Sequence record: PZ445427.1
Source of the DNA: a phage
Direction: 5' to 3' (one strand)
DNA length: 64,000 nt
Each line of letters opens with the position of its first letter. Within the stretch, counting starts at the first letter, position 1. Position numbers and translations under genes: made by a program. The notes beneath the pieces were generated by a model. That model was not told the DNA's origin, did not search any database, and worked only from the letters and a program-made list of their open reading frames with translations. Below, one piece after another: positions 52,752 through 61,048 of this stretch.

Positions 52752-53001
52752 TGCTGTACTAGACTTCCTCAAGCAGGAACATATTAAGTTCTGGACTAAC
52801 TATGCAGAACAGTACGAAGAAACTTCTAGTGCAATAACATTCGCGGATAAACGAATAGCTGAGTATACAGATCCTAGAGTTAAAAATGGTATGATTACCT
52901 TACCACTTTGGGATGTAATGGAAAAGTTTGGTAAAGATTTGTGCCCAGGTTGTATACCATTGTTTGTTACTATTCTAATTGACGAAAAGGATCTTAAATG
53001 A
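52705..53001 (+). CDS. hypothetical protein (98 aa)
   Basis: ORF; overlaps previous gene by 47 nt in another frame. Confidence 0.4.
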   Translation: MKELNLNSLVQIPATDAVLDFLKQEHIKFWTNYAEQYEETSSAITFADKRIAEYTDPRVKNGMITLPLWDVMEKFGKDLCPGCIPLFVTILIDEKDLK

Positions 53002-53282
53002 TTATCTCTCCATTTGCTTTGTGGTTTGTTATTGGTGCAGTTGTCGCGATTTACAGTCTGATTGATGATCTGTATATCTCTAAAAATAAAGATGTTATTC
53101 TTTATGTTATAAACAAATATCGTCCGCCAGAATTAGCAGAATTTGACGATGAAAAGATGTTCAAATTCATTATGTCAGGTATGCTTATTATGGACACCTT
53201 GTTCGGGCCAGTAGCTACTTATTTCTTCTTCCGTAAAACTCGTAAGATGAAAAAGTTCCGTGCTGAAATGCAGAGCAAGTAA
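52998..53282 (+). CDS. small membrane protein (94 aa)
   Basis: N-terminal TM helix; basic C-terminus. Confidence 0.5.
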   Translation: MIISPFALWFVIGAVVAIYSLIDDLYISKNKDVILYVINKYRPPELAEFDDEKMFKFIMSGMLIMDTLFGPVATYFFFRKTRKMKKFRAEMQSK

Positions 53283-53398: not shown

Positions 53399-53746
53399 AT
53401 GAGCTTTATTTTATTTATTGTAGCAGCATGGTTTATTATTGGTTTAGGCTATGCTATTGCAGTTATTCGTCATCTGGATGAATATTCTGCTGAATGGTTT
53501 ATTAAGTACCTACGTTTAGACGATCAAGAACACGAGTTCGACAGTGCTGAGGAAAGACAGGCTGTCCAGTCAATGACTCCCAAAGAATGCTTGCTTTACA
53601 TGCGTGTAATTGGTTTCTTTGGACTGTTGGTAGCGGGGCCGCTAGGTCTTACTATTGCTCCCTACAAAGAAGTTGTTGACGACATTAAACTATGGAGAAC
53701 CGCTGGATCGCTACGTCGTGCTAGAGAATTAAGTAAACAAGAGTGA
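53399..53746 (+). CDS. membrane protein (115 aa)
   Basis: start at ATG after GGAGATATC; two TM helices. Confidence 0.5.
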   Translation: MSFILFIVAAWFIIGLGYAIAVIRHLDEYSAEWFIKYLRLDDQEHEFDSAEERQAVQSMTPKECLLYMRVIGFFGLLVAGPLGLTIAPYKEVVDDIKLWRTAGSLRRARELSKQE

Positions 53747-53781: not shown

Positions 53782-53817
53782 AGCCCAGCCTGCAATTTTG
53801 CGACTGGGCTATTTTTG
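53782..53817 (+). terminator. rho-independent terminator
   Basis: AGCCCAG...CTGGGCT hairpin followed by ATTTTTG. Confidence 0.6.
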
Positions 53818-53831
53818 TAATAAAATTTCAG

Positions 53832-53860
53832 TTGCTCAGATGCCACAAGTATTGTATAAT
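53832..53860 (+). promoter_or_regulatory. promoter cassette (TTGCTC-N17-TATAAT)
   Basis: upstream of 53892 gene. Confidence 0.6.
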
Positions 53861-53891
53861 ATGTTTATAGATTGAGGCAAAAGGATAATTT

Positions 53892-54590
53892 ATGAGAATC
53901 ATTTCAAAGTTCAATGATGTATACGATTTGCAGAATAGTTTATTTGATCCAGATCGTGTCTGGGAGCGTAAAACTGAAGAGCTGCTAGTAAAAGTAACTG
54001 ACGATGTAGAAAAGAATATCGTTCATAATCGTCAGGTGTTTCGTGAGGGTTCCTTATCCTTCCGTGGTGACTTCGAATACTCAGTAAATCCACTGTTTAT
54101 TGCAGGCGAAGTTTACTGGTTACATGAACTGTCCTGCTGGCATCCAGCATTCAGTTTCAAAACGTTCAACATCGATGCTGTGTTCGATAAAATGGAAGAA
54201 ATGGGATTACATGCCCGTTCTTACTTACTAGATAAGAATCGTGGTGATGTTCGTGAAACCATGCGAGATATGTTGGTTGAAGCAAAACCTAAAGCAGAAC
54301 GTATCTTATCTGAACTGCGCGTACCAATTGCATATGTGAAAGGTATTAAGAAGAACGATAACGATGATGTTCGTAACTTCGTAATTCAGACAAACATTCG
54401 TTTCCATCAGTCAGGTATTCCGTGGCAGGAAATTGAAAGTAACTTATACCGTTTACACCAAGTTCTCGAACAGTATATCTTCGGTGTACTAGGAACTGGT
54501 GAGCCTGATATGATTACCGTATCAGATAAAGACAGGTTAGCAGCACATGGATTTGATACAAAAACTTCTTTCAGGAATATGGCAAGGTAA
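53892..54590 (+). CDS. hypothetical protein (232 aa)
   Basis: ORF with SD AAAAGGATAA. Confidence 0.55.
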   Translation: MRIISKFNDVYDLQNSLFDPDRVWERKTEELLVKVTDDVEKNIVHNRQVFREGSLSFRGDFEYSVNPLFIAGEVYWLHELSCWHPAFSFKTFNIDAVFDKMEEMGLHARSYLLDKNRGDVRETMRDMLVEAKPKAERILSELRVPIAYVKGIKKNDNDDVRNFVIQTNIRFHQSGIPWQEIESNLYRLHQVLEQYIFGVLGTGEPDMITVSDKDRLAAHGFDTKTSFRNMAR

Positions 54591-54996
54591 GTGGTATATC
54601 CTGGGAGCTGGTCTTGCGATAGGTATCGGATTCGGTGCTTATCACTTAGTAAATAAGGTTGAAACCCTAGCTGGGGATCTTGCAATTGCGACTAAAAAGA
54701 TCTCCACTCTAGAGACTTCCCTTAATAAGGTGAAAACTGAGAGTGAACTTCGTGAGACTCGAATGAACCAGTATTTCACAATGAATAATATTTCGCAAGC
54801 AGATCTAGACAAAAAGATTAAGCAGTTAGATAAAGCTCTTAGTCGTCAAGATGTTATCGCTGCAAAGCCTGGATTGGTAACATTAATTGCTAAAAAGCAG
54901 AATAAAGAGTTCGAGGAAAGATTAGCATGTTTAACTGGAAACTTGGAGTACTGCTCGCAGCCGCAATCACAATCACAGGCTGTGCAGAAGAAATAA
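54547..54996 (+). CDS. membrane-anchored coiled-coil protein, candidate i-spanin
   Basis: N-terminal TM helix WYILGAGLAIGIGFGAY then long helical periplasmic part; next gene starts inside it. Confidence 0.4.
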   Translation: MDLIQKLLSGIWQGKWYILGAGLAIGIGFGAYHLVNKVETLAGDLAIATKKISTLETSLNKVKTESELRETRMNQYFTMNNISQADLDKKIKQLDKALSRQDVIAAKPGLVTLIAKKQNKEFEERLACLTGNLEYCSQPQSQSQAVQKK

Positions 54997-55280
54997 AACC
55001 AGAGCCATCTCATGAGTTAAAGCAAGCTCATGTTGACTGGCCTAAAGGACTTCAGCCGTGTAGCTTTGATTTCAAATTCGAAAAGAAATTAGCTACAAAT
55101 GGTGAAGATGGCGTAGTAGTTGTTGTACCTTACAAAGATTGGAATGCAAAAGCAAAATGCGAGGAAGCAGTTTACTCTTACATTTCACGACTGACCGGTA
55201 TGGTTTGCTTCTATCGTCAAGATTTACAAGAAAAACGTTGCTTAGTTTACTATCCACCCATTACAAATAGGAAAGATTAA
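54927..55280 (+). CDS. lipoprotein, candidate o-spanin
   Basis: lipobox LAAAITITGC after signal helix; embedded start within previous gene (Rz/Rz1-like architecture). Confidence 0.4.
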   Translation: MFNWKLGVLLAAAITITGCAEEIKPEPSHELKQAHVDWPKGLQPCSFDFKFEKKLATNGEDGVVVVVPYKDWNAKAKCEEAVYSYISRLTGMVCFYRQDLQEKRCLVYYPPITNRKD

Positions 55281-56032
55281 TGTCAGTATTAGTCGGTTTA
55301 CATGGTGAGGCTGGTGCGGGAAAAGATACCGTTGCAGAATTAATGATTGACTGGTGTAATGACACGTTCCCAACGTGTTTATCCCGTCGTTATAGTTTTG
55401 CTAAACCCGTTTACGAACTTGCATCCGTAATCCTCGGGGTAACCCCAGAGTTTCTGGGAGAGCGCAGGGGAAAAGAGATTGACCAATGGTTTACAGTCAC
55501 ACAATCTCAATTGGAGCGAGCTAGAGACGTATGGTTTAAGTATGGTATCGATAAGTTTGAGGACTTCTCGTACGTTTGGCCGATATTTGAAGGAAAATAC
55601 CTTGATCCTCAGCAGTTAATTGGGCAAGCTGATGATGCGCTGTATAGCGTATTTATCTCCCCAAGAAAAATGCTACAGCTTGTAGGTACTGAGTTAGGAA
55701 GGCAGCTGGTGCATGAACGCATTTGGCTCATAATTCTGGAGCAATCCATCGATAAAGACGACCCAGACGTCGCAATCGTTACCGATGTGCGTTTCCCCAA
55801 TGAGGGAGAGCTAATCATGGAAACCAATACTCTAGATATGGATTCCATGCTTATTAAGGTTGAATCTGGTATTACTAATAAGTATCGCATCGAGACAGAT
55901 CATCCGTCTGAAAGCGGTATTCCTGAAAAATACATTTCTCATAAATTTGAGAATACCTTCAACGGACTTGATGCACTTCGTACCGATGTGTACCACTTCT
56001 GTGACTTAGAGCTAGAACCACTAGTTGGATAA
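55280..56032 (+). CDS. deoxynucleoside monophosphate kinase-like P-loop kinase
   Basis: 250 aa; P-loop GLHGEAGAGKDT (compare T4 gp1 GxxRSGKDT). Confidence 0.6.
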   Translation: MSVLVGLHGEAGAGKDTVAELMIDWCNDTFPTCLSRRYSFAKPVYELASVILGVTPEFLGERRGKEIDQWFTVTQSQLERARDVWFKYGIDKFEDFSYVWPIFEGKYLDPQQLIGQADDALYSVFISPRKMLQLVGTELGRQLVHERIWLIILEQSIDKDDPDVAIVTDVRFPNEGELIMETNTLDMDSMLIKVESGITNKYRIETDHPSESGIPEKYISHKFENTFNGLDALRTDVYHFCDLELEPLVG

Positions 56033-56044
56033 TTAAGGATCACT

Positions 56045-56644
56045 ATGACTAATAAGAAAGAAGAAAAGACTAACCTGTTTCACACTGTTCGCCAATCTAA
56101 CGAATATACCTTTTTCTTTGATGAAGAATTAGGCTCACCGGATGAGTATCGTGATCTATCAATGATACTGATGCAGGCTGGTGAAGATGATGAAATTAAT
56201 CTGATGATTAATGGGCCTGGTGGTTACGTTGATACTGCTGCACAACTATCTAACCTAATCGCTAACTGTCGTGGAACGGTTATTGGACACCTGCTCGGTC
56301 CTAGTGCTTCTGCTTACTGCACAATCTTCCTGTCTTGCCATGGTTGGGTTGTACATCCACATGCTACGCTTATGGGACATACGTTCTCTGGCGGATTCTG
56401 TGAGAAAGGTCAAGAAATCAAGAAAGCCTATGAATCTTACAACCAGTTTGTAGAAGATATGATGCTCGATGTTTACTTCCCGTTCTTCTCTATTGACGAG
56501 ATCGAGGACATGGTAAAAGAGAATAAGAATATCTACCTCAACAGCAAAGAAATCAATAAGCGTATTGAAATTTTGGCGAATTATCGCAAAGAGCAATATA
56601 GTAAAGCTCAAGCTCCACATCCAGAAGAACATGGAGAAGTGTAA
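56045..56644 (+). CDS. ClpP/S49-like serine protease fold protein (tentative)
   Basis: 199 aa; LMINGPGGYVD and GPSASA segments resemble ClpP-family cores. Confidence 0.4.
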   Translation: MTNKKEEKTNLFHTVRQSNEYTFFFDEELGSPDEYRDLSMILMQAGEDDEINLMINGPGGYVDTAAQLSNLIANCRGTVIGHLLGPSASAYCTIFLSCHGWVVHPHATLMGHTFSGGFCEKGQEIKKAYESYNQFVEDMMLDVYFPFFSIDEIEDMVKENKNIYLNSKEINKRIEILANYRKEQYSKAQAPHPEEHGEV

Positions 56645-56800
56645 GTAGTTTTAAGCCAGAGTTTAACGACTCTGGCTTTTCTTTTGCCTAAAATTCTTCT
56701 TGACAACGACAAAAAATTATGCTCCAGAAGTGATCTTTAAAAACACGTTGTAATTTTCCTCTAGAATTAGTATAATGGTAATGGTTAGAGGAGGTTACAA

Positions 56801-57457
56801 GTGGAAAAGTTTCTACAACTATTAACGGTACTGCTCCAAGAAGCGAAAGATCCAGCTTCGCTACTAAAACGTCTGCTAACTATCTTAGTTGCTGTCATTA
56901 TTTTCTTGTTTGTAAGTAACACTAGCGAGGTGATGTCATTTTTAAAGACTTTCTCCACGTCTGCGGTTTTACAGGATGTTCAAACCCAAAGGATAGATAA
57001 CTTTCCTAATGTAGCACGAGAAAAGAGCATGGTTCTTTTCTCTCAGACGGGTGCGGATGCTGTTTTTGTAGTCAAGTATAAACCCGATGCTATAAACGAT
57101 TATTCGAACATTATTGCATGGGAAAGCAATGCGCAATTGGATAGGGCTGACTTGGCCGATAAAGCAGTAAACAAGACGTCTGAACTTTATAGACGTCACC
57201 TGGAAGGCTTTAACTACGCTTCGGATTTAAGTGTAAAAGTAAATAAATATATGGGGTCAAATATACCCGCGTTTAAGAACGTTACTTTTAATTACGTCTA
57301 TACTTGTCCGTATTTCAACCTAAATAATATCTATGCTGGATACATAGGTATTGCCTGGAAGGATAAACCCGTAGATACAGCTGACTCGGAACAATTTAAG
57401 GAGTACTTAACAAAGCTTTGCTCACCGCAGCAAAGATCATTAGGTAGATCTATATGA
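56801..57457 (+). CDS. holin-like membrane protein (218 aa)
   Basis: GTG start after GAGGAGG; single N-terminal TM helix LLTILVAVIIFLFV; immediately upstream of and overlapping endolysin. Confidence 0.55.
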   Translation: MEKFLQLLTVLLQEAKDPASLLKRLLTILVAVIIFLFVSNTSEVMSFLKTFSTSAVLQDVQTQRIDNFPNVAREKSMVLFSQTGADAVFVVKYKPDAINDYSNIIAWESNAQLDRADLADKAVNKTSELYRRHLEGFNYASDLSVKVNKYMGSNIPAFKNVTFNYVYTCPYFNLNNIYAGYIGIAWKDKPVDTADSEQFKEYLTKLCSPQQRSLGRSI

Positions 57458-57867
57458 GTTTTAAATTTGGTAAAAATAGCGAAAAACAATTAGCAACTGT
57501 TAAGCCCGAGCTACAAAAGGTAGCTCGTAGGGCTTTAGAACTATCCCCATATGATTTCACAATCGTACAAGGTATTCGTACAGTAGCACAAAGTGCCCAA
57601 AACATTGCTAATGGTACTTCATTTTTGAAAGACCCTAGCAAAAGTAAGCATGTAACTGGAGACGCTATCGATTTTGCACCATATATTAATGGTAAGATTG
57701 ATTGGAAAGATCTGGAAGCATTTTGGGCTGTTAAGAAGGCTTTTGAACAAGCTGGTAAGGAACTTGGTGTCAAACTTCGTTTTGGTGCCGACTGGAATAG
57801 TTCTGGTGATTATCATGATGAGATCGATCGTGGTACTTACGACGGTGGTCACGTAGAATTAGTCTGA
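57454..57867 (+). CDS. endolysin, M15-family L-alanyl-D-glutamate peptidase
   Basis: 137 aa; Zn-ligand motifs H..GDAIDF and DGGHVE; N-terminus MSFKFGKNSEKQL as recalled for T5 endolysin. Confidence 0.85.
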   Translation: MSFKFGKNSEKQLATVKPELQKVARRALELSPYDFTIVQGIRTVAQSAQNIANGTSFLKDPSKSKHVTGDAIDFAPYINGKIDWKDLEAFWAVKKAFEQAGKELGVKLRFGADWNSSGDYHDEIDRGTYDGGHVELV

Positions 57868-57876
57868 TAATAAATC

Positions 57877-57901
57877 AAGGCGGGGTAATTCCCGCCTTTT
57901 A
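57877..57901 (+). terminator. rho-independent terminator after endolysin
   Basis: GGCGGG-GTAATT-CCCGCC followed by TTTT. Confidence 0.65.
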
Positions 57902-57942
57902 AAGCAAAGGGGGCTTTAAAAACTTAATGATAGGAGAAAGCC

Positions 57943-58359
57943 ATGTTTGCAGAACTATTCACCATGATATTACTAGGAATATGGAAAATAAGCCTAGTAG
58001 TTTTCATCTTAATGATAATTCTCACTGTTGTCGCACTAGTTACCCAAAATGATACATTAAAGAAAGTCGTTCATGGGCTAGAGTATATAATTATGGGCAC
58101 ATTCGGCGTTTGCAAATGCAACTGCCAGAGGAATACGAAATATTGTTGGCTTTGGATGGAGTTAGAGAACTGCATCACAGTAGCCCTGGCTGTCTCATTC
58201 GGTATGATTCTTATGGCCCTTACTCTAGCATTGATACCACTGATGTTAGCTGGGGGAGTCACGGCTTATTTCACCCTTTTCTCCCCTATACTTATGTATT
58301 CAATATATCCAATAACTATGTACTTAGTTAGGAAGAGATTCCCACATCAAGCACACTAA
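57943..58359 (+). CDS. polytopic membrane protein (138 aa)
   Basis: several hydrophobic helices; Cys cluster CKCNCQ. Confidence 0.5.
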   Translation: MFAELFTMILLGIWKISLVVFILMIILTVVALVTQNDTLKKVVHGLEYIIMGTFGVCKCNCQRNTKYCWLWMELENCITVALAVSFGMILMALTLALIPLMLAGGVTAYFTLFSPILMYSIYPITMYLVRKRFPHQAH

Positions 58360-58372
58360 TATAAAAAAGTAG

Positions 58373-58401
58373 TTGACTTTCCGCTGAAATTTTTATATAA
58401 T
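58373..58401 (+). promoter_or_regulatory. promoter cassette (TTGACT-N17-TATAAT)
   Basis: upstream of 58435 gene. Confidence 0.6.
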
Positions 58402-60474: not shown

Positions 60475-60842
60475 TGGAACGTGAAGAACGTTATGTAGTT
60501 ATAAAGCTGTCTGATATTGAGAAAGCCCTAGAATTAGGGCATATCACTCAGAGTAACTTTACCACTTTGGAACATATCTTGTCCAAACTATGGTATAGTC
60601 GAGCACAACGTGGTAAAGAAGATCTCAAAACCGTCGTGGTAGAGCATGATTGGCCAGAGTACGAAGAAGTCTGGAAAATGCTAGAGAATCGTGTTGGTTT
60701 TGAGCAAGCACGACAGGAAGAACTTGACAAAGGATATCAAGAAGCGAAAGAGCACCATGAGGTTTATGATGAAATATTCAAACTTCGTGGTATTAGTAGT
60801 TATTGTCAGGGTTGGAATAAATATGCGGAGGAAGTTCTGTAA
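60474..60842 (+). CDS. hypothetical protein (122 aa)
   Basis: ORF coupled to neighbours. Confidence 0.5.
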   Translation: MEREERYVVIKLSDIEKALELGHITQSNFTTLEHILSKLWYSRAQRGKEDLKTVVVEHDWPEYEEVWKMLENRVGFEQARQEELDKGYQEAKEHHEVYDEIFKLRGISSYCQGWNKYAEEVL

Positions 60843-61048
60843 TGAAGAGATTACTACTAGTATCAGTACTAATACTAGCTGGATGTGATCCTTATGATAA
60901 TAGTATGAGATTCACCGCAGAAGATACTAGACACTTGTGTGATGTAGCTGGAGGTGAGCTGGATAATTCCAGCATCCAAATTGGACTCACAAAAGGTATA
61001 TTCTACGATAGTTATACTATTACCTCAACTTGTGTAAGGAATAAGTAA
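60842..61048 (+). CDS. small lipoprotein (68 aa)
   Basis: signal + lipobox VLILAGC. Confidence 0.5.
   Translation: MKRLLLVSVLILAGCDPYDNSMRFTAEDTRHLCDVAGGELDNSSIQIGLTKGIFYDSYTITSTCVRNK

What the first reader, a model, noticed from the sequence alone, without database searches (positions are those of the whole stretch)
54547..57901. Lysis genes: holin-endolysin pair plus a separate embedded spanin-like pair
Seen in sequence: a 218-aa membrane protein overlaps the start of an M15-family endolysin (57454..57867) and a strong terminator follows. About 2 kb upstream, a TM + coiled-coil protein (54547..54996) contains in another frame the start of a lipoprotein with lipobox ITGC (54927..55280), the architecture typical of i-/o-spanin pairs. 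A dNMP-kinase-like and a ClpP-like gene lie between the two pairs. The spanin assignment is inference.
Basis: partly seen in the sequence, partly recalled or inferred. Interest (0 to 1): 0.4.

Follow-up and report, generated by a model that had tools for sequence, protein, structure and literature searches.

The report
Known T5-type phage lysis genes
These are the ordinary, already catalogued host-lysis genes of a T5-like Salmonella/E. coli phage: a T4-type holin, the EndoT5 cell-wall peptidase, and, 2 kb upstream, an overlapping two-part spanin that breaks the outer membrane.

Summary
The window is a T5-like phage (Epseptimavirus), 99.7% identical over this stretch to Salmonella phages 100268_sal2 and 118970_sal2.

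- **Holin:** 56801-57457 is a class III T-type holin (Pfam Phage_holin_T, E=1e-114), with one transmembrane domain.
- **Endolysin:** 57454-57867 is 96% identical to the solved EndoT5 L-alanyl-D-glutamate peptidase (PDB 2MXZ/8P3A). It has no signal or membrane segment.
- **i-spanin:** 54547-54996 matches phrog_739.
- **o-spanin:** 54927-55280 matches phrog_812. It has the lipobox ITGC, with Cys19 followed by Ala at +2.
- **Overlap:** the two spanin genes share 70 nt. This is the "overlapped" architecture, not "embedded", and it equals the 70-bp overlap published for the T5 spanin family (Kongari 2018).

Both spanin subunits are detectably homologous to T4 PseT.3/PseT.2, which complement lambda Rz/Rz1 mutants. 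The two cysteines essential in T4 PseT.2 are conserved here as C94 and C105.

The spanins sit in an upstream transcription unit with dnk and a ClpP-like gene. Holin and endolysin form their own promoter-to-terminator unit, as annotated in T5 itself.

The "strong terminator" is a conserved GC-rich hairpin with only a four-T tail. No function was tested here. Low interest.

The parts
53782..53816 (+). Hairpin plus T-run that ends the preceding transcription unit. It marks the upstream boundary of the spanin-containing unit.
   Evidence: Fold of -16.3 kcal/mol, z=-3.5. It is nearly identical to the stretch annotated as a terminator in T5.
53832..53860 (+). Putative early promoter of the spanin-containing unit (TTGCTC, 17 nt, TATAAT).
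   Evidence: Read from the sequence. It aligns with the promoter annotated upstream of T5.047 in NC_005859. The consensus scan did not call it because only 3 of 6 bases match in the -35 hexamer. This assignment is inference.
53892..54590 (+). 232-aa protein of unknown function (T5.047 homologue). It is the first gene of the unit and its 3' end overlaps the i-spanin start by 44 nt.
   Evidence: phrog_4243, unknown function, E=1.4e-115. It is 91% identical to T5.047. The overlap was computed.
54547..54996 (+). i-spanin (inner-membrane spanin subunit), 149 aa. It has an N-terminal Gly-rich TMD (about residues 17-35), helical periplasmic segments broken at the conserved AAKPGL motif, and a C-terminal tail carrying C128 and C136.
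   Evidence: phrog_739 Rz-like spanin, E=7.5e-38. It is 86% identical to T5.045 and homologous to T4-type PseT.3. The AF2 single-sequence model gives helices 2-79, 84-99 and 109-129 at low confidence. Relatives annotate it as i-spanin.
54927..55280 (+). o-spanin (outer-membrane lipoprotein subunit), 117 aa. It has the signal peptide and lipobox ITGC (Cys19), Ala at +2, and a 98-aa mature part with C45, C78, C94 and C105.
   Evidence: phrog_812 Rz-like spanin, E=4.2e-30. The lipobox was found. It is 91% identical to T5.044 and homologous to T4 PseT.2. G18, C19, C94 and C105 are invariant across T5-like and T4-like homologues.
54927..54996 (+). 70-nt dual-coding overlap. It encodes the i-spanin C-terminal tail (including both of its cysteines) and, in another frame, the o-spanin signal peptide and lipobox.
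   Evidence: Coordinates. The same 70-bp overlap is reported for T5 (PMC6139136).
55280..56032 (+). Deoxynucleoside monophosphate kinase (dnk). It is not a lysis gene. Its start shares one base with the o-spanin stop (TAATG).
   Evidence: PF21448 at 33.8 bits against a 27.1 cut-off. phrog_139. It is 82% identical to T5 dnk.
56045..56644 (+). ClpP-like serine protease homologue (T5.042 homologue). Its role is unknown and there is no evidence that it acts in lysis.
   Evidence: PF00574 at 30.8 bits against a 20.2 cut-off. phrog_1827. It is 89% identical to T5.042.
56653..56678 (+). Intrinsic terminator that ends the spanin/dnk/clp unit.
   Evidence: 11-bp stem followed by TTTTCTTTT. Fold of -18.1 kcal/mol, z=-5.0. 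It is annotated in T5 and in Sw2. One stem position shows a compensatory change relative to T5.
56748..56776 (+). Promoter of the holin-endolysin operon (TTGTAA, 17 nt, TATAAT).
   Evidence: 10 of 12 consensus match. It aligns with the promoter annotated in T5.
56801..57457 (+). Class III (T4 gpt-type) holin, 218 aa, GTG start. It has a single TMD at about residues 21-39 and a C-terminal domain of about 180 aa that is periplasmic by analogy with T4 gpt.
   Evidence: PF11031 Phage_holin_T, E=1e-114. phrog_860. It is 97% identical to the T5 holin and about 28% identical to T4-type holins.
57454..57867 (+). Soluble endolysin: a Zn-dependent L-alanyl-D-glutamate peptidase of the M15C subfamily (EndoT5 orthologue), 137 aa.
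   Evidence: E=1.8e-88 over the full length, about 96% identical to PDB 2MXZ/8P3A. PF13539. No hydrophobic segment (maximum Kyte-Doolittle 0.57). W114, critical in EndoT5 (PMC10487532), is present.
57877..57898 (+). GC-rich hairpin followed by TTTT. It is the likely terminator of the holin-endolysin operon.
   Evidence: Fold of -16.4 kcal/mol, z=-2.2. It is conserved in T5 and annotated there as a putative terminator. The scan called it only on the minus strand.

Best explanation
This is the standard three-step lysis system of a T5-like (Demerecviridae, Epseptimavirus) phage, split over two adjacent early-region transcription units.

- Unit 1 (about 53832 to the terminator at 56653-56678) carries a gene of unknown function, the overlapped i-spanin/o-spanin pair, dnk and a ClpP-like gene.
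- Unit 2 (promoter 56748-56776 to the hairpin at 57877-57898) carries the holin and the endolysin, translationally coupled through an ATGA overlap.

The mechanism below is inferred from the characterised homologues.

1. The single-TMD T-type holin accumulates in the inner membrane and, at a set time, forms large holes.
2. The cytoplasmic, signal-less EndoT5-type peptidase escapes through these holes and cuts the L-Ala-D-Glu bond of the peptidoglycan stem peptides.
3. The spanin complex is then freed. It consists of the i-spanin, anchored in the inner membrane by its N-terminal TMD, and the o-spanin, lipid-anchored to the inner leaflet of the outer membrane through Cys19. The two are joined across the periplasm through their C-terminal regions and stabilised by disulfides.
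4. Released from the murein meshwork, the complex collapses and fuses the inner and outer membranes, releasing virions.

Shown here: the gene anatomy, the family membership and the homology. Inferred: the topology, the disulfides, the timing and the fusion activity.
For: - Identity of the phage: 99.7% identical over 4.6 kb to Epseptimavirus genomes. Several of these annotate the same ORFs as holin, endolysin, i-spanin and o-spanin; others, including the top hit, label them hypothetical.
- The endolysin is 96% identical to the solved EndoT5.
- The spanin pair has the full set of defining features: TMD, helical periplasmic domain, lipobox, no Asp at +2, adjacent overlapped genes and periplasmic cysteines.
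- Both subunits are homologous to T4 PseT.3/PseT.2. That pair complements a lambda RzamRz1am lysogen, and its C87 and C98 are essential (PMC6139136). These two cysteines align with the invariant C94 and C105 here.
- The T5 spanin family is described as overlapped by 70 bp and includes EPS7.
- The T5 RefSeq record shows the same gene order, promoters and terminators, and already notes the PseT.2/PseT.3 similarity.
- The layout is conserved down to 44-48% o-spanin identity in Klebsiella and Pectobacterium T5-like phages.
Against: - No function was tested here. I found no direct experiment on T5-type spanins in the literature I could read, so the support rests on homology to T4 and on sequence features.
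- The i-spanin TMD is Gly-rich and only moderately hydrophobic (19-aa Kyte-Doolittle 1.55, just under the usual 1.6 threshold). No dedicated TM or lipoprotein predictor was available.
- The AF2 single-sequence models are of low confidence (pLDDT 62 and 54).
- Homology to T4 spanins is weak (24-33% identity; E=7.7e-4 and 1.9e-5 against the window).
- The hairpin after the endolysin has a short T-tract, so termination efficiency is uncertain.
Confidence: 0.93

Rival explanations
1. The TM protein and the lipoprotein are envelope proteins with another role, for example superinfection exclusion or receptor blocking like T5 Llp. They would then only resemble spanins superficially.
For: T5-like phages do encode small lipoproteins with non-lysis roles; Llp is mentioned in PMC4342426. 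The pair lies in a different transcription unit from holin and endolysin, next to nucleotide-metabolism genes. No direct experiment on T5-type spanins was found.
Against: Both subunits are homologous to T4 PseT.3/PseT.2, which is functionally validated and likewise not adjacent to the T4 holin or endolysin. The essential Cys pair is conserved. The pairing is conserved across Demerecviridae, even where a homing endonuclease has been inserted between the two genes. No other candidate spanin pair was noticed among the ORFs examined (about 51.8-61.6 kb).
Confidence: 0.04
2. The 54927-55280 ORF is a chance or mis-called overlapping frame, and only the 149-aa protein is real.
For: Overlapping ORFs in AT-rich phage DNA often arise by chance. 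Several GenBank records leave it unannotated or truncated.
Against: The ORF is conserved with an intact start, lipobox and four cysteines down to 44% identity, and it persists as a free-standing gene in SHSML-45. phrog_812 matches at E=4.2e-30. It is homologous to T4 PseT.2. A purine-rich stretch (GAGGAAAG) lies upstream of the ATG.
Confidence: 0.01
3. Lysis is driven by a pinholin/SAR-endolysin route, or the 138-aa multi-TMD protein at 57943-58359 is the true holin, rather than the 218-aa protein acting as a canonical large-hole holin.
For: A 3-4 TMD protein of unknown function (phrog_5944) lies directly downstream of the endolysin. Multi-TMD proteins next to endolysins are often holins.
Against: The endolysin has no SAR or signal segment. 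The 218-aa protein matches Phage_holin_T at 382 bits and is translationally coupled to the endolysin. The T5 hol gene is treated in the literature as a gpt homologue (PMC12894885). The 138-aa gene lies beyond the hairpin terminator.
Confidence: 0.02

Closest known systems
Bacteriophage T5 spanins T5.045 (i-spanin) and T5.044 (o-spanin): the 'T5 family' in SpaninDB (Kongari et al. 2018)
   Same: 86% and 91% identical. Same overlapped architecture with a 70-bp overlap. Same neighbours downstream (dnk, Clp-like, holin, lys). Same lipobox ITGC and the same six periplasmic cysteines.
   Different: T5 has the HNH endonuclease gene hegF inserted just upstream of the i-spanin, and the first ~15 residues of the i-spanin differ. 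In the window the T5.047 homologue instead overlaps the i-spanin start by 44 nt.
T4 PseT.3/PseT.2 two-component spanin (separated architecture), validated experimentally
   Same: Detectable homology of both subunits. Conserved KPxL motif in the i-spanin. Conserved HxxWP motif and C-x10-C pair in the o-spanin; this pair is C87/C98 in T4, where both are essential. The o-spanin is longer and has predicted secondary structure, unlike lambda Rz1. The genes are not adjacent to holin or endolysin.
   Different: Only 23-33% identical. In T4 the genes do not meet the criterion for the overlapped class and the i-spanin has no cysteines. Here the i-spanin has a C-terminal extension of about 25 aa with two cysteines, encoded in the overlap, and the o-spanin has an extra Cys pair (C45/C78).
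Lambda Rz/Rz1 (prototype spanin, embedded architecture)
   Same: Same functional design: a type II inner-membrane protein with a helical periplasmic domain, plus an outer-membrane lipoprotein encoded in another frame, and periplasmic cysteines.
   Different: I did not test sequence similarity to lambda Rz/Rz1. Rz1 lies entirely inside Rz and its mature form is only 40 aa and proline-rich. Here only 70 nt overlap, and the mature o-spanin is 98 aa with predicted strands and a helix (low confidence).
T4 gpt holin (class III, Pfam PF11031)
   Same: Both are 218 aa, with a single N-terminal TMD and a large C-terminal domain. Full-length Pfam match. About 28% identity to T4-type holins.
   Different: No homologue of the T4 antiholins RI or RIII was detected in this 64-kb window. 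Here the holin is immediately upstream of, and coupled to, the endolysin, whereas T4 t and e are far apart.
EndoT5 (T5 Lys), L-alanyl-D-glutamate peptidase, PDB 2MXZ / 8P3A
   Same: 137 aa, about 96% identical over the full length. W114 and the Ca-binding loop residues G118 and H121, named in PMC10487532, are present.
   Different: Five substitutions (V67I, K85N, V106I, S116A, D125K, written window to T5). One of them, S116A, lies in the 111-121 stretch that holds the loop residues named in PMC10487532; none changes a residue named there.

Membership tests
Two-component spanin (i-spanin + o-spanin) | i-spanin: a single N-terminal transmembrane domain (N-in, C-out). | tested here: met
   The only hydrophobic segment is residues 17-35, YILGAGLAIGIGFGAYHLV. 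Kyte-Doolittle is 1.73 over 15 aa and 1.55 over 19 aa. It is helical in the AF2 model and conserved in homologues. Caveat: hydropathy is borderline and no dedicated TM predictor was available.
Two-component spanin (i-spanin + o-spanin) | i-spanin: a periplasmic domain of helical/coiled-coil segments separated by a linker. | tested here: met
   All a/d heptad positions are hydrophobic in 28-residue windows across residues 33-65. AF2 gives helices 2-79, 84-99 and 109-129, with a break at the conserved AAKPGL motif (low pLDDT of 62).
Two-component spanin (i-spanin + o-spanin) | o-spanin: an SPase II signal peptide with a lipobox and the lipidated Cys. | tested here: met
   MFNWKLGVLLAAAITITG|C. 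The lipobox ITGC fits [LVI][ASTVI][GAS]C at residues 16-19. G18 and C19 are invariant in 7 homologues, including T4.
Two-component spanin (i-spanin + o-spanin) | o-spanin is sorted to the outer membrane (no Lol-avoidance Asp at +2). | tested here: met
   Residue +2 is Ala20. The rule itself is established knowledge for E. coli. Localisation was not tested.
Two-component spanin (i-spanin + o-spanin) | The two genes are adjacent, in an embedded, overlapped or separated arrangement. | tested here: met
   70-nt overlap in different frames, which is the overlapped class. This matches the published T5 family.
Two-component spanin (i-spanin + o-spanin) | At least one periplasmic cysteine available for homotypic disulfides. 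| tested here: met
   The i-spanin has C128 and C136. The o-spanin has C45, C78, C94 and C105. C94 and C105 align with the essential T4 PseT.2 C87 and C98.
Two-component spanin (i-spanin + o-spanin) | Outer-membrane disruption activity (complementation of lambda Rz/Rz1 mutants). | not testable with these tools
   This needs an experiment. It has been shown only for the distant homologue T4 PseT.3/PseT.2.
Class III holin (Phage_holin_T, PF11031) | Sequence match to the family profile above the curated threshold. | tested here: met
   382.2 bits against a cut-off of 22.2, covering residues 3-217.
Class III holin (Phage_holin_T, PF11031) | One TMD with a large C-terminal periplasmic domain. | tested here: met
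   A single hydrophobic segment at about residues 21-39 (Kyte-Doolittle 2.44), followed by about 180 hydrophilic residues.
Class III holin (Phage_holin_T, PF11031) | Timed, lethal hole formation that releases the endolysin. | not testable with these tools
   This needs inducible expression. The T5 hol/lys operon has been studied experimentally (Chernyshov et al. 2024, cited), but that paper could not be read.
M15C L-alanyl-D-glutamate peptidase (EndoT5 type) | Full-length similarity to the characterised enzyme, with active-site and regulatory residues retained. | tested here: met
   E=1.8e-88 to 2MXZ/8P3A. H66, D73 and H133 are identical to EndoT5; their role as Zn ligands is from my own recollection and was not verified here. 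W114, G118 and H121 are present.
M15C L-alanyl-D-glutamate peptidase (EndoT5 type) | Soluble, holin-dependent export (no signal or SAR domain). | tested here: met
   Maximum 19-aa Kyte-Doolittle of 0.57, with no hydrophobic N-terminus.

The most novel reading that the evidence does not exclude
The T5-type spanin could be a mechanistic variant of the T4 type. Its i-spanin carries a C-terminal extension of about 25 aa with two conserved cysteines (C128, C136), encoded entirely within the 70-nt dual-coding overlap. Its o-spanin carries an extra conserved Cys pair (C45/C78) in what may be a small folded alpha/beta domain. If these extra cysteines form required disulfides, the overlap would be under functional constraint in both frames rather than serving only to compact the genome. 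A further open point is that the spanins sit in an early transcription unit, separate from the holin, so they may be deployed long before lysis.
Probability: 0.25. Interest if true: 0.2.

Novelty: already known. Interest (0 to 1): 0.07.

Why it matters
It matters little beyond correct annotation. The region is the textbook lysis module of T5-like phages and is already described in the T5 genome annotation, in SpaninDB and in several GenBank records. The practical value lies in three points:

- It confirms that the overlapped 117-aa ORF is a real gene. Many deposited genomes still leave it unannotated, truncated or labelled "i-spanin".
- It corrects "embedded" to "overlapped".
- It flags that a different small lipoprotein at 60842-61048 is probably mislabelled "Rz-like spanin" in RefSeq.

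Tried and rejected
- I searched the window for T4 antiholin homologues (RI, RI.1, RIII) by local tblastn and found nothing significant. There is therefore no evidence of a T4-like lysis-inhibition module here.
- A strict hydropathy threshold (19-aa Kyte-Doolittle >= 1.6) missed the i-spanin TMD. Re-examination with other window sizes showed a Gly-rich segment just below the threshold.
- Single-sequence AlphaFold models of both spanin subunits were of low confidence (pLDDT 62 and 54). I used them only for secondary structure and ran no fold search.
- I tried to read Chernyshov et al. 2024 (T5 holin/endolysin operon) and Summer et al. 2007 (Rz/Rz1 equivalents). Neither is held.
- I considered the 68-aa lipoprotein at 60842-61048 (phrog_6073 "Rz-like spanin") as a second o-spanin and rejected it. 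It has Asp at +2, no adjacent TMD partner, a patchy distribution, and no counterpart at this position in T5.
- I considered the 138-aa multi-TMD protein after the endolysin as an alternative holin and rejected it (see the rival explanations).

Full report
**What the window is.** The 4.6-kb stretch 53800-58400 is 99.7% identical to Salmonella phages 100268_sal2 and 118970_sal2 (Demerecviridae, Markadamsvirinae, Epseptimavirus). It matches 459 phage records, almost all T5-like phages of Salmonella and Escherichia. Several of those records already annotate the ORFs as i-spanin, o-spanin, dNMP kinase, ATP-dependent (Clp) protease, holin and endolysin, at coordinates that map one-to-one onto the finding.

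**Checking the observation.** All ORFs exist as described.

- **Holin (56801-57457).** The 218-aa ORF starts with GTG, six nt after a GGAGG. It has one strongly hydrophobic segment (residues about 21-39, Kyte-Doolittle 2.44). It ends in an ATGA overlap with the 137-aa ORF at 57454-57867.
- **i-spanin (54547-54996).** The 149-aa ORF has a single Gly-rich hydrophobic segment at residues 17-35. Kyte-Doolittle is 1.73 over 15 aa and 1.55 over 19 aa, which is borderline on the usual 1.6 threshold. A heptad-patterned region follows. A low-confidence single-sequence AlphaFold model makes it almost entirely helical, with breaks near residues 80-83 and at the AAKPGL motif.
- **o-spanin (54927-55280).** The 117-aa ORF starts 70 nt before the end of the i-spanin ORF, in a different frame. 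It begins MFNWKLGVLLAAAITITG|CAEE, giving the lipobox ITGC, Cys19 and Ala at +2.
- **Genes in between.** These are a dNMP kinase (PF21448) and a ClpP-like protein (PF00574), both above the Pfam gathering scores.

Two details need correction.

1. The spanin genes are "overlapped", not "embedded". Only 70 of the 354 nt of the lipoprotein gene lie within the i-spanin gene.
2. The element after the endolysin is a 9-bp GC-rich hairpin (57877-57898, -16.4 kcal/mol, z=-2.2) followed by only four Ts. The consensus scan called it only on the minus strand. It is nevertheless conserved in T5, where it is annotated as a putative rho-independent terminator.

**What each part is.**

- **Holin.** The 218-aa protein matches Pfam Phage_holin_T over its full length (E=1e-114; 382 bits against a 22.2 cut-off). 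It is 97% identical to the T5 holin and about 28% identical to T4-type gpt holins. The literature treats T5 hol as a class III gpt homologue (PMC12894885).
- **Endolysin.** It is about 96% identical over its full length to EndoT5, the Zn-dependent, Ca-activated L-alanyl-D-glutamate peptidase solved as PDB 2MXZ/8P3A. It has no hydrophobic segment. It is therefore a soluble enzyme that depends on the holin for export.
- **Spanin pair.** The two upstream ORFs match the lysis PHROGs 739 and 812 ("Rz-like spanin") at E=7.5e-38 and 4.2e-30. They are 86% and 91% identical to T5.045 and T5.044.

**Link to a validated spanin.** Both subunits are detectably homologous to T4-type PseT.3/PseT.2.

- Pairwise BLASTP gives E=2e-6 and 2e-7 against T4, and 7e-8 and 3e-11 against the T4-like phage PEi26.
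- In a six-frame search of the whole window, T4 PseT.3 and PseT.2 hit only these two ORFs significantly (E=7.7e-4 and 1.9e-5).
- Kongari et al. 2018 showed that pseT.3/pseT.2 complement a lambda RzamRz1am lysogen, and that both PseT.2 cysteines (C87, C98) are essential.
- In a 7-sequence alignment spanning T5-like phages of Escherichia, Shigella, Klebsiella and Pectobacterium plus T4 and PEi26, the lipobox G-C and this C-x10-C pair are invariant. The pair is C94/C105 here. The i-spanin alignment shows an invariant KPxL motif.
- The T5 RefSeq record already notes the PseT.2/PseT.3 similarity.
- The same paper defines a "T5 family" of spanins (T5, EPS7, SPC35, Stitch, AKFV33, FFH1, DT57C) as overlapped by 70 bp. 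Shivani and phiR201 are separated variants, created by a homing-endonuclease insertion.
- I saw that variant directly in Shigella phage SHSML-45. There the o-spanin ORF is free-standing and unannotated, yet it keeps its lipobox, and the i-spanin keeps both tail cysteines.

**Transcription layout.** The region forms two units, matching the T5 annotation.

- **Unit 1.** A hairpin/T-run (53782-53816, -16.3 kcal/mol) and a promoter-like site (TTGCTC, 17 nt, TATAAT, about 53832-53860) precede the T5.047 homologue. The spanins, dnk and the Clp-like gene follow. The unit ends at a clear terminator, 56653-56678 (11-bp stem, -18.1 kcal/mol, z=-5.0). This terminator shows a compensatory stem change relative to T5.
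- **Unit 2.** A promoter (TTGTAA, 17 nt, TATAAT, 56748-56776) drives holin and endolysin as far as the 57877-57898 hairpin.

The promoter and terminator roles are inferred from sequence and from the T5 annotation. They were not measured here.

**Mechanism.** This is inferred from the characterised homologues.

1. The holin triggers and opens large lesions in the inner membrane.
2. The EndoT5-type peptidase reaches the murein and cleaves the L-Ala-D-Glu bonds.
3. The spanin complex is then free to act. The i-spanin is anchored in the inner membrane. The o-spanin is lipid-anchored to the outer membrane. The two are linked through their C-terminal regions and through disulfides.
4. The complex fuses the two membranes.

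**Differences from T4.** These are modest.

- The i-spanin has a C-terminal extension of about 25 aa carrying two conserved cysteines, encoded within the overlap.
- The o-spanin has an extra conserved Cys pair.
- No RI or RIII antiholin homologue is present in the window.

**Verdict.** The system is already known and widely annotated. What remains untested, for this phage and to my knowledge for T5 itself, is direct functional proof of the spanin pair. Interest is low.

Noticed in passing
window 60842-61048 (+): A 68-aa lipoprotein (MKRLLLVSVLILAGC|D...) with the lipobox LAGC but Asp at +2, which is the inner-membrane retention rule. It matches phrog_6073 "Rz-like spanin" and carries that label in RefSeq NC_031902. 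It has no adjacent TMD partner, occurs in only 147 phage records against about 550 for the real spanins, and has no counterpart between T5.034 and T5.035 in T5. It is probably an accessory lipoprotein mislabelled as a spanin.
   Followed up: partly
window 57943-58359 (+): A 138-aa protein with 3-4 predicted TMDs and a Cys-rich loop (CKCNCQRNTKYC) lies immediately after the endolysin hairpin. It is the T5.039 homologue (83% identical) and falls in phrog_5944, of unknown function. Its position next to the lysis operon is suggestive but untested.
   Followed up: partly
window 55456-55468 (inside dnk): The sequence GAGAGCGCAGG is conserved with the site annotated in T5 as a major single-strand DNA interruption (nick consensus around GCGC). 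This phage probably carries the same nick.
   Followed up: partly
window 54547-54590; L007 6246-6743; L008 1815-2513: Homing endonucleases come and go around the spanin genes. T5 has HNH hegF just upstream of the i-spanin, and SHSML-45 has an endonuclease between the i- and o-spanin genes. The window has neither; instead the upstream 232-aa ORF overlaps the i-spanin start by 44 nt.
   Followed up: partly
window 56045-56644 (+): An early-region ClpP-like protein (PF00574; also similar to head-maturation protease PHROGs) sits between the spanins and the holin. Its function in T5-like phages appears to be unknown.
   Followed up: no
window 52998-53282 and 53399-53746 (+): Two small proteins of unknown function (phrog_5265 and phrog_5468) lie just upstream of the spanin-containing unit. 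Relatives annotate each with two TMDs. They are homologues of T5.049 and T5.048.
   Followed up: no
L004 3501-3830 (Klebsiella phage vB_Kpn_K7_rec7); L008 2501-2854 (SHSML-45): In these deposited genomes the o-spanin is either truncated (annotated from an internal start, so the signal peptide is lost) or not annotated at all. In several other records it is labelled "i-spanin". Annotation errors are common for this gene.
   Followed up: yes
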